From contig NC_047022.1 in the NCBI RefSeq assembly GCF_902652985.1, positions 38,378,001 to 38,442,000 on the forward strand: 64,000 nt of DNA. Reading direction: 5' to 3'. Position numbers: made by a program. Origin of the DNA: Pecten maximus (lineage: Eukaryota). Shown here one piece after another: positions 33,201 through 39,200 of the stretch (positions within the stretch are counted from its first letter, which is position 1; each line of letters opens with the position of its first letter).

Positions 33201-36200
33201 GGTATATATATGTAAATAGTGGGGCTGCAACAAACAGCTGTCGAGGTAATTACAAATAGAGCGTTTTTTATAGTTTAAACCAATTAAATACTTTCCTTGA
33301 TTTTAACAGCATTCAGGTGAAAATAATTCCATTTTCCATACAGATTATTTCAACTATCCAGTATTATAAGTATAGGTATGTTTTGGCTGTATCTTGTAAA
33401 GTACAAATTAAACAACTAAAATGTTGGTGCTTGAACATGATTAAGAAATAGCTATAGATACAGGTTTACATCAAACAAAAACTTATATGTCACATAAAAT
33501 TTGTGTTTAATCTGACATTTTGACAATCTAACATTTCCATAACAAATCATTTCAAAGTTATTGATAGAATAACAAGTTTAAAGGTGTACTATTTAAACAA
33601 ATGGTAACAAAACAAATTCATGGTGCGAGTTCTACATAAAACCTAGTTATAACTGTAGTAAATCTTATTAAAACATCTGCAGGCTAGAGGTAGTTACGAG
33701 CAAGGCTTTTACATCAATACAATTACATTGAATATACATATAGCAGATTATGCTGTGTAGTTTGGGTGAAGATAAAGCACAAGTATCGTGTCCCGTAATA
33801 AAAGTATTTGTTTGATAAAAAGTCATCCCTGGCCAGTTCTACAATACAGTTATATAATAGAACACTAAAACATAACAGAAGTAGACAACATCATTATATT
33901 CTGAAAACTATTATTTGTGTCTTCTGTGGATGTCCTTGTGTATACTGGTACATGTATATACCTGTCAAATATTTGGGTGTAGTATTCATTGATAAAACAA
34001 TTTAATATATACGATAATTAACTATGGTAACCAGCTCAATAATTATAAATACATTTTTTGTATCATCATTGGCCCCTGGAAAAATTGCACCAGTGATTAT
34101 AGATTTGTGATTTTCACCAGGGGCCAAGGATAACTAAACATCTATACACCACAACCACATGTTCATAAGTACAGACTACTAGTACTGGTACATACCGACA
34201 ATCTATGGGTGTAGTAACAATTTAATAAACAACAGCAACAACGATAAAGAACTTGCTAAATATCTACATACCACAACCAAATGTATATGAGGTACAGTAA
34301 ACCAGTAACGGTACAAAGCTTTACAAATACATGAAGTGGCAATAGACAATCTAACACTACGTACTACATAATCGTACAAATTAACGATAACAAACATCTA
34401 CAGATCACAACCAAATGTGTAAAGGTTACGAACATTTCGTAAAAGGTGTAATTTTCTGTTCAAAGTATTCTCCATTAAAAGTCAATTTTTGTTCCAAATT
34501 CATACTCTGGTACTGTGTACCTTATACAAAATATTACATAACAGAGCTTAAACAGGTTTCAAAGGGGACTTTTCTGGAATATTCATATACCACTGAATTA
34601 CAGCCATATACACACTGTTGTGTTTTATGTTATAGTCTATTTGAATGTAAACATGGCTACAATGTACAATGTCCTAGCTTGACTGTCTTTCCCAATGAAA
34701 TTGATGTAAAAACTTATCAACTAATTGTGAAATATGAAAAGTATAGAAACAATGAATCTGGCAAGAAAAATCAATATCATTTTGTGCCCTTAAGTAATTC
34801 TTTCTTTTGATTTATTAGTAGTAATTGCAAGTCGAAGAGGAAATAATTTTGAGAAAAATTTCAAAAATTATTCATGCATATGTAAATCATAAAACTTGAA
34901 CACATATCAGATCATTATTAAATGTAAACTTATAAATATCAATTTTAAAATATGCTTGTAAAAAAGCAAAATATAAACAATGTTTTAACAGATTTAGCAC
35001 ATTTAACAATTGATTTACTTGATGGAGTTAATGCTGAGTTCAGATTTATAAACTAACTTTCTGATTTTTCAACATGAGACAGATTTTGTTATTTAAAGAG
35101 CAACAAAAATATGAAGTACCAAGTACACATATATTGCAATATTCAATGGTTTAAAATAAACAATCAATACAACTTTTTCAATATGCTTCCCATTTCAATT
35201 CTTAAAGTTGTTTGAAACCTGACCTCAATGAAGACAGGAAATAAGAATGGTCACAATCCTAACTATGCTCTAATGATGCACTTAAAACTATACAACATTA
35301 ACCAATAAAACATAAAACAATAAAAGCAAAATATTTAAAAAAAAAAAAAAAAAAAAAAATCGGTGTAGAACAGCTATGGTGAAGTACAACATGTACAGAA
35401 ATAAACAACAATTTGTGTATCAATTAAAATATTCTCTTCTTGTGTCAATAACTATAAATACAAAAAAAATGCCTGGAATGTTGCAAGATTTGTAGAAAAT
35501 AAATACTGGAGACATGCATCCTTCTTAATATGAAAAATAGAATTACAGTAGAAGTGTACAAAATTAAACAGAAAAGGAAAAGAAAAACTCCAAAAATCAC
35601 CGGTGATAACTTTAAAAGGTACCTGATAAAAACAATAAATTTCACTAGGTCCTGAAAACATTTTTTTTAATGTTACAAGAAATTATGTTAACTGAAAACA
35701 TCAATAACATGATGACCCTGTAGTTGGTAAAGCGTTGATGATATTTGTCACACCAGACACCTGGTTTAATTACTATTGGGACATATTCAATAGGATTTGT
35801 GGAACACATTTTTTGTAACAGAAAATGCAAGCTAATATTTCATACATAATGATGACCATACACTAGGGTCGTTTTTTAATCTTTATTTTTTGTTTTTAAT
35901 CTTTAATTTTTGAAGTAAAACTGAAAATCATTATTATATCTGTTACTATAAAGAATTTCTGTAGTGTAGTTTAGTTATGGTAGATATACATCAGACAAAG
36001 TTTGTTTAATTAATATAAATAATAAAATAGAATTAATATCTTGTTTATGTAAAGACAAGGTGAACTACTGGGTCTATATAAGAAAGAAAATAAAACAATG
36101 GCAAGTTTAAAAAAAAAAGCTGTCAAGCTAAACTCTAGCTGTATATACTGTAAGTGTACAAGTTTGGGCATTCTCAGATTTGAGCATATCATCAAATTTA

Positions 36201-39200
36201 ACAGATTAGCTGATCAGCTGAGCCATCCTAAAACAATATAAAAATGCAATTAACTCAATCCTTATTAAGTGCAGTAACTACAGAGCCAAAAATTCTAAAA
36301 ATAAGATTTATACTGCTAAAATTTATACATTGTGGGAATAAGATACTTTGTTAGTACAATCATTGTATATGGCTACATCAACTGCTACATATTGTCTTGA
36401 TGCTTATCGGTTGTTTTTTGAATTTGACAAGAAATATGTGGTAATAATTGTTAGCTGGTACATATCAAAAAGGTTTGGACTCCATGTGATTGTCGTCAAT
36501 TGGCAGGAAGAAGAAAACAGCAGCTGCAACAGAAAAGATGAACCCTCCCCAGCCAAAGCCGTAGGTCCAGTCAAAGTCCCAGCGCTTAACGTTGATGAAT
36601 GTCTGTATTGACTCTCGAAACTTTATTGGAAAAATGATCAGTGACAGCAGGTCAGATAAAGCTGAAAAGACAAAAAGTGAGCAATGAGATGTTGATTATT
36701 TTCATAATACATATTGATAAGCAGAATAAAACAAAAACCTTGTGAATTGGAGAGCAGTTTTTAGCAGTCATATGACTATCATTCATGAACATAAGAGTTG
36801 ATAACCATGGGAGATAATTACTTACTCAGGGGAGATAACCCTGAACTGTTAGTGTTGATAACCATGGGAGATAATTACTTACTCAGGGGAGATAACCAAG
36901 AACTGTTAGTGTTGATAACCATGGGAGATAATTACTTACTCAGGGGAGATAACCTTGAACTGTTAGTGTTGATAACCATGGGAGATAATTACTTACTCAG
37001 GGGAGATAACCTTGAACTGTTAGTGTTGATAACCATGGGAGATAATTACTTATGCAGGGGAGATCTTGCCATGAACTGATAGAGTTGATAATGATGGAAG
37101 ATATTTACTCACTCAGGGGAGATAACCCTTTACTCACCAACAAGAGTGACAATGCCACCAGCTATGACATAGAGAAGTTTTCTCCTTGGGATATCCAAAG
37201 AGCAGAGTCCAAGTATACCACATCCAACAACTACCACGCTGAACAGGAGGGAGACAATGCTAAAGGTGGCACAGACCTTTACCCAGTCTGAAAAGTAATC
37301 AACATCATGGGATCTAGTATTCCAAAAGGGTTTTACATTTACACAAGGTCAATGTACAACAGGTCAAGGGTTTTTTTTTTTCAACAAACATTGAAGCCCT
37401 TGATGTTAGGAAACTTGCTATAATTCAATCATCTAAAGACTATTATAGGCGACTGGCCAATATGTCAAGGATTATTCTGACATTCTAATGATTTCTTATA
37501 TAATAGATCTGGCATCTAATTAAGTTGTATGACTGTATAAAGTGTAATGATAAATTCATTCACAAAGTATTATAAGAAACACATCACAGAAAAAAATCCT
37601 TGTCAGACTCAATTACCGGGTATATTGTACTAGACTTATTTGCATTGGTAATTTTCAGTTGAAGGATGCATAACAATGTGTGTGCTGTATATCAAGCCAC
37701 ACATATAGCATGCATCTTATACCTGTTGTGTTTGAAGAACAGGAGTCTCCTTCACAGATATCCCATAATCCCCATGTGATGCTTTGCCGGTTGTCATGGT
37801 GGAATTTCACTTCGACCCACTCCTTACCGGCGATACTACTGATCAATAGGATAACAGTTATTCCACTAAAGATCACTGCTATCAGCTGAAAAAAAGTGTA
37901 GGAAAAGTTATTAAAAAATGTATACATGTACAACATTATGTTAGCAGCATGCCAGCACCATAATTATCACTAAAATACATGAGCCAGCTTGTTTCAATCA
38001 CTAAATAGGTGATGTGACTGGCAAGGGCAAAACGACCAAATATAATTGACATGCATATGGCTGCTTAGAAAGAAGCAGTGAGATGTTTGAAATAATGAAC
38101 TGGTTACTGAAAAACTCAACTTTTGGTGGATTAATCATCAGAGTAACCAATAATTGATGAAATTGATTAATCTGAATACCAGCTATTGCTCTGTTATTGT
38201 GCACAGCATGCTGTTATAGGAAATATCAAATCCTATTGAATATGTCCCAATAGTAATTAAACCAGGTGTCTGGTGTGACAAATATCATCAACGCTTTACC
38301 AACTACAGGGTCATCATGTTATTGATGTGACATTTGTCAAAATGCATTGTACATAAGTTAAAAGAAAACTCAATGTAGGAAAGTAATGCTAGACGAATGG
38401 ACAGTGGCTATGTGAGAACTAGCTATATATAGGTTTCTATAATAGGATACATAATTGACGCTGGCATTTATGCTTGTTTGTTTTGTTTGTTTTTGTTTAA
38501 CGTCCTATTAACAGCCAGAGTCATTTTAGGACATGCCAGGTTTTTGGAGGTGGAGGAAAGCCTGAGTACCCAGAGAAAAACCACCGCCCTACGGTCAGTA
38601 CCTGGCAACTGCGCCACGTAGGTTTCAAACTCGCAACCCAGAGGTGGAGGGTTAGTGTTAAAGTGTCCGGACACCTTAACCACTCGGCCACCGCGGCCCC
38701 TGGCATTTATGCCTCTATGCTTTAAATTAATAATTGCACATCAAATGAAATAAGATTAATGTTCACATCTGGTAATAGATTTGAAGCTAAATGTACAATG
38801 TAGCAAGATGTCTAAATTTTATTTCCAAGCATTTTCAAAAGCTGTCCAAATTAATCTTAGTATAACTATTTAATGGAGGGAGCCTCTACATCCAAATCTG
38901 GTAGGCTGTTCCATATATCTATATCTATGCAAAACGTCAGTATGAATTGATGGTCTGTGTACGTCTATGCTTAATTATATAGTTTGCAGCCATTATAGAG
39001 GCTCCATTATAGAGGCTATGAGAGTCCAGATACAACATAACAGTCAGCAATGTCTTATAGTCTATACAATCTCCTAAAATATATTGTTGCTAACCAAACC
39101 GAGGCAGAACTCAATCTTTGACACCTGAATGATAAAAAAAAAACAACTGTAAAAGCAAATGGATCCGAGCCGACCCTTTTACATTTTTATTCATAATATG

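What the first reader, a model, noticed from the sequence alone, without database searches (positions are those of the whole stretch)
35698..38328. Perfect 102-bp inverted duplication bracketing TMEM47 exons 2-4
35698-35799 (~670 nt past the stop, presumed 3' UTR) is the exact reverse complement of 38227-38328 (intron 1). It shows no TE hallmarks and no mismatches, so it is a very recent templated insertion or is kept identical. In pre-mRNA it would form a 102-bp duplex looping out ~2.4 kb that holds nearly the whole CDS: a potential ADAR substrate, back-splicing promoter (exons 2-3) or endo-siRNA source. At DNA level it could mediate an inversion that disrupts the gene.
Basis: partly seen in the sequence, partly recalled or inferred. 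Interest (0 to 1): 0.65.

Follow-up and report, generated by a model that had tools for sequence, protein, structure and literature searches.

The report
Young inverted 102-bp copy in scallop gene
A scallop membrane-protein gene carries a perfect 102-base piece of its first intron copied backwards just downstream of the gene, most likely a young and harmless DNA-repair or replication scar, with no sign so far that it regulates anything.

Summary
Bases 35698-35799 are the exact reverse complement of 38227-38328: 102 nt, no mismatches, 2,427 nt apart, with sharp ends. The contig is a pectinid scallop, not human.

The gene lies on the minus strand. It has four coding exons and belongs to the PERP/TMEM47 branch of the PMP22/claudin family. 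Arm B lies in intron 1, 341 nt before exon 2. Arm A lies 665 nt past the stop codon.

Neither arm, nor the pair, has a target-site duplication, terminal repeats of its own or a poly(A) tail. Neither folds unusually or encodes a known protein. The 102-mer's composition matches intron 1 and not the AT-rich 3' flank.

Best reading: a young templated inverted insertion, intron 1 into the 3' flank. Zero differences in 102 nt still allows up to 2.9% divergence, so nothing needs to keep the arms identical.

Whether arm A is transcribed is open: an AATAAA lies upstream of it, but one is expected by chance. The proposed RNA roles are untested. Genome-wide copy number could not be checked. Interest is low.

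The parts
35698..35799 (.). Arm A of the inverted repeat, 665 nt downstream of the stop codon of the minus-strand gene. Probably the derived (inserted) copy.
   Evidence: 102 nt, 100% complementary to arm B; its G+C (36.3%) and Markov composition are atypical of its own surroundings, whose mean is 26%. Only 1.4-2.4% of 102-nt windows there reach its G+C, and 0-1 of 28 held-out windows reach its log-likelihood ratio.
38227..38328 (.). Arm B of the inverted repeat, inside intron 1: 341 nt upstream of the exon 2 acceptor and 1,586 nt downstream of the exon 1 donor. Probably the source copy.
   Evidence: Composition is typical of intron 1: mean G+C 36.6%, with the arm at about the median.
35800..38226 (-). 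The 2,427-nt spacer between the arms. It holds the 665-nt stretch 3' of the stop, coding exons 4, 3 and 2, introns 3 and 2, and the last 341 nt of intron 1.
39915..39953 (-). Coding part of exon 1 (13 codons from the ATG, followed by a GT donor). It lies outside the repeat-bounded unit.
   Evidence: tblastn of P0001 residues 1-14: 92.9% identity, E=0.004. Sequence read.
37886..39914 (-). Intron 1 (2,029 nt), which contains arm B.
37723..37885 (-). Coding exon 2 (163 nt). It holds the first transmembrane helix and the extracellular loop.
   Evidence: AG acceptor and GT donor read. P0001 residues 13-67 match at 96.4% identity. Pfam TM225-like E=4.8e-6 for the surrounding open frame.
37138..37287 (-). 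Coding exon 3 (150 nt).
   Evidence: Splice sites read. P0001 residues 67-118 match at 92.3% identity.
36465..36661 (-). Coding exon 4 with the stop codon TGA at 36467-36465.
   Evidence: P0001 residues 118-182 match at 95.4% identity.
35882..35887 (-). Canonical AATAAA hexamer on the gene strand, 578 nt after the stop and 82 nt before arm A. If it is used, the mRNA ends before arm A.
   Evidence: By chance 1.36 are expected in the 665-nt gap and 1 is seen, so usage is unknown.

Best explanation
The pair is a young, local, inverted micro-duplication. A 102-bp piece of intron 1 (arm B, 38227-38328) of a scallop PERP/TMEM47-like gene was copied in reverse orientation into a site 665 nt downstream of the stop codon (arm A, 35698-35799), with the donor left in place.

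The likely route is one of two. Either a chromosome break was repaired with a templated patch (a class-2-like templated sequence insertion), or the polymerase switched template during replication and then switched back.

The copy is most likely neutral or nearly so. The two arms are identical because too little time has passed for a difference to arise, not because anything holds them identical.

Shown: the perfect repeat, its sharp ends, the absence of mobile-element hallmarks, the gene geometry, and the compositional match to intron 1.

Inferred: the direction of copying, the mechanism, the young age and the neutrality.
For: - Perfect 102-nt inverted identity with abrupt ends.
- No target-site duplication next to either arm or around the whole 2,631-bp unit. 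The only shared word of at least 5 nt is a 5-mer lying 15 and 20 nt from the arm A junctions. There is no terminal inverted repeat within the 102-mer (0 matching terminal bases) and no A-run abutting an arm.
- No tRNA gene in the window. No Rfam family reaches its gathering score in 34500-41000.
- Each arm alone folds like its shuffles, z = 0.06 and -0.24.
- The arm's open frames match no Pfam family. The one hit among 1.84 billion representatives is a translated tandem repeat at 27% identity.
- Direction: the 102-mer has 36.3% G+C. The 500-nt flanks of arm A have 26.6% and 26.8%; those of arm B have 37.0% and 39.8%. Only 1.4% of 1,360 (wide context) or 2.4% of 797 (within 500 nt) overlapping 102-nt windows around arm A reach the arm's G+C, against 50% of 1,724 in intron 1.
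- With Markov models of order 0-2, 0 or 1 of 28 held-out 3'-flank windows reach the arm's log-likelihood ratio, while 19-23 of 29-35 intron windows lie at or below it.
- The gene is intact and collinear with the Argopecten irradians protein across exon 1 (outside the unit) and exons 2-4 (inside it), all on the minus strand. The segment is therefore not inverted in this assembly.
- Mechanistic precedent: class 2 templated sequence insertions lack target-site duplications and poly(A) tracts and keep the donor (PMC5110952, passages). Template switching copies a fragment in reverse complement and creates new perfect inverted repeats (PMC5453318, passages). Templated and inverted insertions arise at breaks in yeast (PMC11724301, abstract).
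Against: - No empty-site allele or sister-species locus was available. The insertion, its direction and any junction microhomology, microdeletion or filler bases are therefore not seen directly.
- The copy number of the 102-mer in the rest of the genome is unknown, because no eukaryotic genome collection was searchable.
- The compositional argument rests on about 30 half-overlapping windows per context and gives only about a 1-in-30 level of support.
- The template switches described in PMC5453318 involve nearby segments (passages), and the local foldback insertions in PMC11724301 are mostly about 5-34 bp (abstract). A 102-bp copy placed 2.4 kb away is at or beyond that range.
- No read data were available to exclude an assembly error.
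Confidence: 0.55

Rival explanations
1. The two arms are independent insertions of, or fragments from, a dispersed repeat family (a short mobile element), which happen to lie in opposite orientation on either side of exons 2-4.
For: The window is repeat-rich: 63 TRF rows and a 93% identical dispersed pair at 29980-30612 and 48223-48865. Even a real dispersed family could have only one or two copies in 64 kb, so finding no third copy is weak evidence. The genome-wide count was not possible.
Against: Both copies have exactly the same ends and no differences. There is no target-site duplication, terminal inverted repeat or poly(A) tail. There is no tRNA-like or Rfam signal and no coding relative. 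The composition matches the local intron.
Confidence: 0.15
2. One arm is an assembly or polishing artefact: a short piece placed wrongly in reverse orientation.
For: Perfect identity and knife-sharp ends are what a mis-placed piece would also show. At 102 nt the piece is close to a common short-read length (my recollection, from no call). Arm A is compositionally foreign to its surroundings. No reads could be examined.
Against: The window has no gaps and resolves kilobase-long tandem arrays, which suggests a long-read assembly. Such assemblies rarely insert an isolated 102-bp inverted piece (my inference). Both junctions lie in ordinary unique sequence.
Confidence: 0.12
3. The inverted repeat is a working cis-element kept identical by selection or gene conversion. 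In the pre-mRNA it would form a 102-bp duplex that draws ADAR or Dicer or favours back-splicing of exons 2-3. In DNA it would mediate inversion of exons 2-4.
For: The arm-to-arm duplex is -183.8 kcal/mol, and all 102 bases pair arm-to-arm in the minimum-energy fold of the unspliced 2,831-nt stretch. Complementary sequences of about 40 nt near circularised exons are enough in constructs, and ADARs edit such duplexes (PMC12218527, passages).
Against: Identity needs no maintenance: up to 2.9% divergence is compatible with 0 of 102 differences. Arm A is not in an intron, and an AATAAA lies 82 nt before it. Arm B leaves with intron 1, so the duplex could exist only in nascent RNA that has been transcribed about 2.5 kb further before intron 1 is spliced out (inference). 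No conservation or expression data were available. The assembled copy is in the intact orientation.
Confidence: 0.08

Closest known systems
Class 2 templated sequence insertions (break repair with a copied patch; described as polymorphisms in the human genome, PMC5110952)
   Same: A short segment identical to a donor that stays in place. No target-site duplication, no poly(A) tract, and either orientation is possible (PMC5110952 passages).
   Different: There the donors are described as distant genomic regions, often copied through RNA. Here the donor is 2.4 kb away in the same gene. The junction features (microhomology, microdeletion, filler bases) cannot be read without the empty allele.
Template-switch mutations in replication (four-point model, PMC5453318; also PMC8794818, seen only in the search listing)
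   Same: They copy a fragment in reverse complement and create new perfect inverted repeats that can pair in RNA.
   Different: The described events involve segments nearby in primary sequence within one replication fork (passages). Here the copy is 102 nt and lies 2.4 kb from its source.
Reverse-complementary repeats that promote exon circularisation (for example inverted Alu pairs; PMC12218527)
   Same: A long perfect complementary pair brackets internal exons that have a usable acceptor (37885) and donor (37138).
   Different: In the known cases both arms are in the introns flanking the circularised exons. Here the downstream arm lies beyond the last exon and possibly beyond the poly(A) site. 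No back-splice reads were examined.
Terminal inverted repeats of a DNA transposon or foldback element
   Same: Two perfect inverted arms about 100 bp long bound a 2.6-kb unit.
   Different: There is no target-site duplication. The interior is exons 2-4 of a host gene, collinear with exon 1 outside the unit, and holds no transposase-like frame.

Membership tests
Class 2 templated sequence insertion (break-repair patch) | The inserted segment is identical to a donor elsewhere, and the donor is retained | tested here: met
   Two copies, 102 of 102 identical in inverted orientation.
Class 2 templated sequence insertion (break-repair patch) | No target-site duplication and no poly(A) tract at the insertion | tested here: met
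   No direct repeat of at least 5 nt abuts either arm, and no A-run abuts an arm.
Class 2 templated sequence insertion (break-repair patch) | End-joining marks at the junctions (microhomology, microdeletion, non-templated bases), judged against the empty site | not testable with these tools
   No empty allele or orthologous locus was available, because no eukaryotic genome collection was on hand.
Replication template switch (four-point model) | [quoted passage not shown] | tested here: met
Replication template switch (four-point model) | The donor lies nearby, within reach of one replication fork (short range) | tested here: inconclusive
   The arms are 2,427 nt apart. The paper describes segments 'nearby in primary sequence' (PMC5453318 passages), and I saw no upper limit in them.
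Retroposed copy (SINE, or class 1 templated insertion by LINE machinery) | Target-site duplication of at least 5 bp plus a 3' poly(A) tract | tested here: not met
   Criteria from PMC5110952 passages.
DNA transposon or MITE bounded by terminal inverted repeats | Target-site duplication flanking the unit | tested here: not met
   No shared word of at least 5 nt between the 30 nt left of 35698 and the 30 nt right of 38328.
DNA transposon or MITE bounded by terminal inverted repeats | The interior is element sequence, not host gene | tested here: not met
   The interior carries exons 2-4, collinear with exon 1 outside it and with the A. irradians protein.
DNA transposon or MITE bounded by terminal inverted repeats | Several copies in the genome | not testable with these tools
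   Only the 64-kb window could be searched. It holds 2 copies of the arm and no more.
circRNA-promoting complementary intron pair | Complementary stretch of roughly 40 nt or more | tested here: met
   102 nt, perfect. The length criterion is from PMC12218527 passages.
circRNA-promoting complementary intron pair | Both arms lie in the introns that flank the circularised exon(s) | tested here: not met
   Arm B is in intron 1. Arm A is 665 nt beyond the stop codon in the last exon or past the transcript end.
circRNA-promoting complementary intron pair | Back-splice junction reads | not testable with these tools
   No RNA-seq data were available.
Hairpin-RNA, endo-siRNA or ADAR substrate locus | Both arms lie in one transcript | tested here: inconclusive
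   An AATAAA lies 82 nt before arm A, but 1.36 are expected by chance. No transcript data were available.
PMP22/EMP/MP20/claudin family (the host gene) | Pfam PMP22_Claudin match above the curated cut-off | tested here: met
   Met for the public orthologue P0001: 44.8 bits against a cut-off of 26.7. The window's exons, searched one by one, give TM225-like at 27.1 bits against a cut-off of 27, plus sub-threshold Claudin_2 and PMP22_Claudin hits. They are 92-96% identical to P0001.
TMEM47 proper (as opposed to PERP) | Orthology to TMEM47 shown by a tree with vertebrate TMEM47 and PERP | not tested
   Only source names were seen: PERP-like for A. irradians and M. edulis, TMEM47-like for M. trossulus.

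The most novel reading that the evidence does not exclude
The repeat may be more than a scar. By pairing intron 1 with the 3' end of the nascent transcript, it would turn the pre-mRNA of a PERP/TMEM47-like junction-protein gene into a 2.4-kb-loop hairpin. That hairpin would be hyper-edited or diced, or would drive an exon 2-3 circle. This would be a naturally arisen self-regulating hairpin allele in a bivalve, possibly polymorphic, and able to flip exons 2-4 by recombination between the arms.
Probability: 0.07. Interest if true: 0.55.

Novelty: new member of a known kind. Interest (0 to 1): 0.2.

Why it matters
If it is only a young templated insertion, its value is modest. It would be a clean, datable example of an inverted 102-bp copy placed 2.4 kb from its source in a mollusc germ line. 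That is longer and farther than the short-range template switches mostly described, and it would make a handy presence/absence marker.

It would matter more if RNA data showed that the duplex forms and changes the gene's output. That would show how a single mutation can create a long double-stranded RNA or a circle-forming structure in a coding gene.

Tried and rejected
- **Longer, older repeat with a homogenised core:** rejected. The flanks show nothing above shuffles.
- **HDV-like ribozyme:** Rfam drz-agam-2-2 touches arm B plus its flanks at 19.9 bits against a gathering score of 38. It has no counterpart at arm A, so I take it as chance.
- **tRNA-derived element:** ARAGORN found 0 genes in the window.
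- **Structured RNA gene in the arm:** each arm folds like its shuffles.
- **Coding fragment:** two frames of the arm are open, but there is no Pfam hit. Only one frame, 33 aa, was sent to the 1.84-billion-protein library. Its single hit, P0003, is a translated tandem repeat at 27% identity. The other open frame was not searched there.
- **Transposon ends, retroposed copy, Helitron-like ends:** no target-site duplication, terminal inverted repeat or poly(A) tail. The Helitron comparison was by eye against recalled end motifs.
- **A loosely repeated 12-13-nt motif** occurs twice left and once right of arm A (seen by eye). It is imperfect and not at the junctions, so I do not take it as a target-site duplication.
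- **Poly(A) signal scan:** uninformative, with 1 AATAAA seen against 1.36 expected.
- **Literature:** 'TMEM47' with 'scallop' gave 0 papers. 'scallop' with 'circRNA' gave 41 papers, of which 8 were listed and none concerned this locus. 'inverted duplication', 'intron' and 'bivalve' gave 1 paper, unrelated.
- **Not possible:** a genome-wide search of the 102-mer, orthologous loci and read support. 
- **Not done:** the exons were searched one by one and were never joined into a spliced model. Full-length statements rest on the public protein P0001.
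Full report
**What is there**

The window has 64,000 bases, no N and 36% G+C. It holds a perfect inverted repeat: 35698-35799 is the exact reverse complement of 38227-38328. The repeat is 102 nt long and the arms are 2,427 nt apart.

A 103-nt pattern starting one base earlier finds only these two places at up to 3 mismatches, and the extra base is the single mismatch at arm B. None of 100 dinucleotide-preserving shuffles gave a match.

The identity ends abruptly:
- With 400 nt of flank on each side, blastn at word size 7 finds nothing better than E=1 apart from the 102-mer.
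- Local alignments of the left and right flanks at 40, 80 and 150 nt are matched or beaten by 655, 329, 844, 820, 1,402 and 735 of 2,000 shuffles.
- No third copy lies in the window, even a diverged one. The next best hits are E=0.71 for blastn and E=1.4 for nhmmer.
- Of 793 self-BLAST HSPs, 66 remain after removing self-hits, mirror duplicates and matches within one tandem array. This pair is the only one at 100%; the next highest is 96.9% over 32 nt.

**Organism and gene**

The contig is not human. The last coding exon, searched alone, finds a 182-aa Argopecten irradians protein at 95% identity. It is named 'p53 apoptosis effector related to PMP-22-like' (P0001).

tblastn of that public protein places four coding pieces on the minus strand, in order:

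| P0001 residues | Window coordinates | Identity |
|---|---|---|
| 1-14 | 39953-39912 | 92.9% (E=0.004) |
| 13-67 | 37888-37724 | 96.4% |
| 67-118 | 37291-37136 | 92.3% |
| 118-182 | 36662-36468 | 95.4% |

Reading the splice sites gives these boundaries:
- exon 1 coding part: 39953-39915
- exon 2: 37885-37723
- exon 3: 37287-37138
- exon 4: 36661-36468, with the stop TGA at 36467-36465

The window therefore comes from a pectinid scallop related to, but not the same as, A. irradians.

I searched the exons one by one and did not join them into a spliced model. Family statements for the whole protein rest on P0001:
- P0001 matches Pfam PMP22_Claudin at 44.8 bits against a cut-off of 26.7.
- The window's single exons give a borderline TM225-like hit (27.1 bits against a cut-off of 27) and sub-threshold claudin-family hits.
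- Sources name the relatives of P0001 either PERP-like (A. irradians, Mytilus edulis) or TMEM47-like (M. trossulus).

I did not build a tree to choose between them.

**Geometry**

- Arm B lies in intron 1 (39914-37886, 2,029 nt). It is 1,586 nt after the donor and 341 nt before the exon 2 acceptor.
- Arm A begins 665 nt after the stop codon and 1,338 nt after the exon 3 donor.
- Exon 1 (outside the unit) and exons 2-4 (inside it) are all on the minus strand in the right order. The assembled copy therefore carries the intact, non-inverted arrangement.

**What the 102-mer is not**

- It has no target-site duplication, at either arm or around the whole 2,631-bp unit. It has no terminal inverted repeat of its own and no abutting A-run.
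- ARAGORN finds no tRNA gene in the window.
- Rfam finds nothing at gathering score in 34500-41000. A drz-agam-2-2 match over arm B plus its flanks scores 19.9 bits against a gathering score of 38 and has no counterpart at arm A, so I take it as chance.
- Each arm alone folds no better than its shuffles, z = 0.06 and -0.24.
- Two reading frames of the arm are open, which is unremarkable for 34 codons. They hit no Pfam family.
- The 33-aa frame, searched against 1.84 billion representatives, gave one hit at E<=0.001. On inspection it is a translated tandem repeat at 27% identity. The second open frame was not sent to that library.

**Which arm is the original?**

Composition gives a lead.
- The 102-mer has 36.3% G+C. 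The 500-nt flanks of arm A have 26.6% and 26.8%; those of arm B have 37.0% and 39.8%.
- Only 1.4% of 1,360 overlapping 102-nt windows between 34800 and 36464 reach the arm's G+C (2.4% of 797 within 500 nt; 1 of 14 non-overlapping windows). In intron 1 the figure is 50% of 1,724.
- With Markov models of order 0, 1 and 2, trained on each context with the tested window held out, 0 or 1 of 28 windows from the 3' flank reach the arm's log-likelihood ratio. The arm sits in the middle to upper part of the intron windows: 19-23 of 29-35 lie at or below it. This holds with or without a G+C-rich block at 38490-38730.

This favours arm B in intron 1 as the source and arm A as the inserted copy. The level of support is only about 1 in 30.

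**How it most likely arose**

A clean inverted copy with a retained donor, no target-site duplication and no poly(A) tail fits two known kinds of mutation.
- Class 2 templated sequence insertions, where a break is repaired with a copied patch (PMC5110952, passages).
- Template switching in replication, which copies a fragment in reverse complement and creates new perfect inverted repeats (PMC5453318, passages; PMC11724301, abstract).

The described short-range switches and foldback insertions are shorter and nearer than 102 nt at 2.4 kb, so this case sits at the long end. Without the empty allele I cannot read the junction marks or choose between the two routes.

**Age**

Zero differences in 102 nt is compatible, at the 5% level, with up to 2.9% divergence between the arms. 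One scallop genome paper reports 1.71% heterozygosity (PMC7191990, passage). The duplication may therefore be about as old as ordinary standing variation. Nothing needs to 'keep' the arms identical.

**RNA-level ideas**

If both arms are in one RNA they will pair. The arm-to-arm duplex is -183.8 kcal/mol, and 102 of 102 arm bases pair arm-to-arm in the minimum-energy fold of the unspliced 2,831-nt stretch. Three things weaken the functional reading.
1. A canonical AATAAA lies 578 nt after the stop, 82 nt before arm A. Four ATTAAA also lie before the arm, and the next AATAAA comes 1,649 nt after the stop. With 1 AATAAA seen against 1.36 expected by chance in this AT-rich stretch, the sequence cannot say where the mRNA ends.
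2. Arm B leaves with intron 1. The duplex could therefore exist only in nascent RNA that reaches arm A before intron 1 is removed, or between the excised intron and the mRNA (inference).
3. Known circle-promoting pairs lie in the introns on both sides of the circularised exons (PMC12218527, passages). Here the downstream arm is beyond the last exon.

None of editing, circles, small RNAs or inversion alleles could be tested.

**Rivals**

- A dispersed repeat family (0.15) cannot be excluded, because no eukaryotic genome could be searched. The identical ends, perfect identity, lack of element hallmarks and local composition speak against it.
- An assembly artefact (0.12) cannot be excluded without reads. 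The gap-free window with resolved kilobase tandem arrays speaks mildly against it.
- A maintained functional element (0.08) has no positive evidence beyond the in-silico pairing.

**Verdict**

It is a new instance of a known kind of mutation, of low general interest unless RNA or population data show an effect.

I found no paper on it: 'TMEM47' with 'scallop' gave 0 papers, 'inverted duplication' with 'intron' and 'bivalve' gave 1 unrelated paper, and 'scallop' with 'circRNA' gave 41 papers, of which 8 were listed and none was relevant. Supplementary files were not consulted.

Noticed in passing
window 36797-37127 (intron 3, minus-strand gene): A 57-bp tandem array of 5.8 copies, 91% matches, begins about 10 nt after the exon 3 donor. 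By eye, each unit on the gene strand carries a GAGTAAGT stretch that looks like a splice donor, so intron 3 starts with a row of decoy-like donor motifs.
   Followed up: no
window 38490-38730: A G+C-rich block of about 240 bp in intron 1, close to arm B. From memory it looks like a tRNA-derived SINE of bivalves. ARAGORN and Rfam gave no tRNA hit there, and it has no second copy in the window.
   Followed up: partly
window 40815-41069 (+) and onward to about 44273: A neighbouring gene on the opposite strand starts less than 1 kb from exon 1 of the PERP/TMEM47-like gene, head to head. Its first open piece matches Pfam RRM_1 at E=2.2e-11. Later pieces are acidic and serine-rich with no Pfam family above its cut-off.
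   Followed up: partly
window 29980-30612 and 48223-48865; also 30432-30607 against 48860-48685: A dispersed repeat pair at 93% identity over about 640 nt, with an 84% inverted match between the ends of the copies. It is probably a foldback-like or MITE-like element next to 40-42-bp satellite arrays.
   Followed up: no
window 56169-58282, 5372-6864, 13265-15249, 17081-18268, 18859-20093, 45662-47401: The window is unusually rich in long tandem arrays. Examples are a 34-bp unit x 62 copies, a 29-bp unit x 51 copies and a 157-bp unit x 12.7 copies. TRF gives 63 rows in all.
   Followed up: no
window 15253-15297: A run of 45 C directly after the 157-bp satellite array. It could be real or a sequencing or assembly oddity.
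   Followed up: no
window 72-1145, 1666-2565, 4779-5297, 62666-63796 (all minus strand): Long open frames of 172-376 aa with protein-like composition but no Pfam family at E<=0.01. They are probably large exons of unannotated genes.
   Followed up: partly
window 35671-35697 and 35813-35826: A loosely repeated 12-13-nt motif occurs twice just left of arm A and once 13 nt to its right (by eye). It is imperfect and not at the junctions, so I do not take it as a target-site duplication. It may mark a slippage-prone spot.
   Followed up: partly
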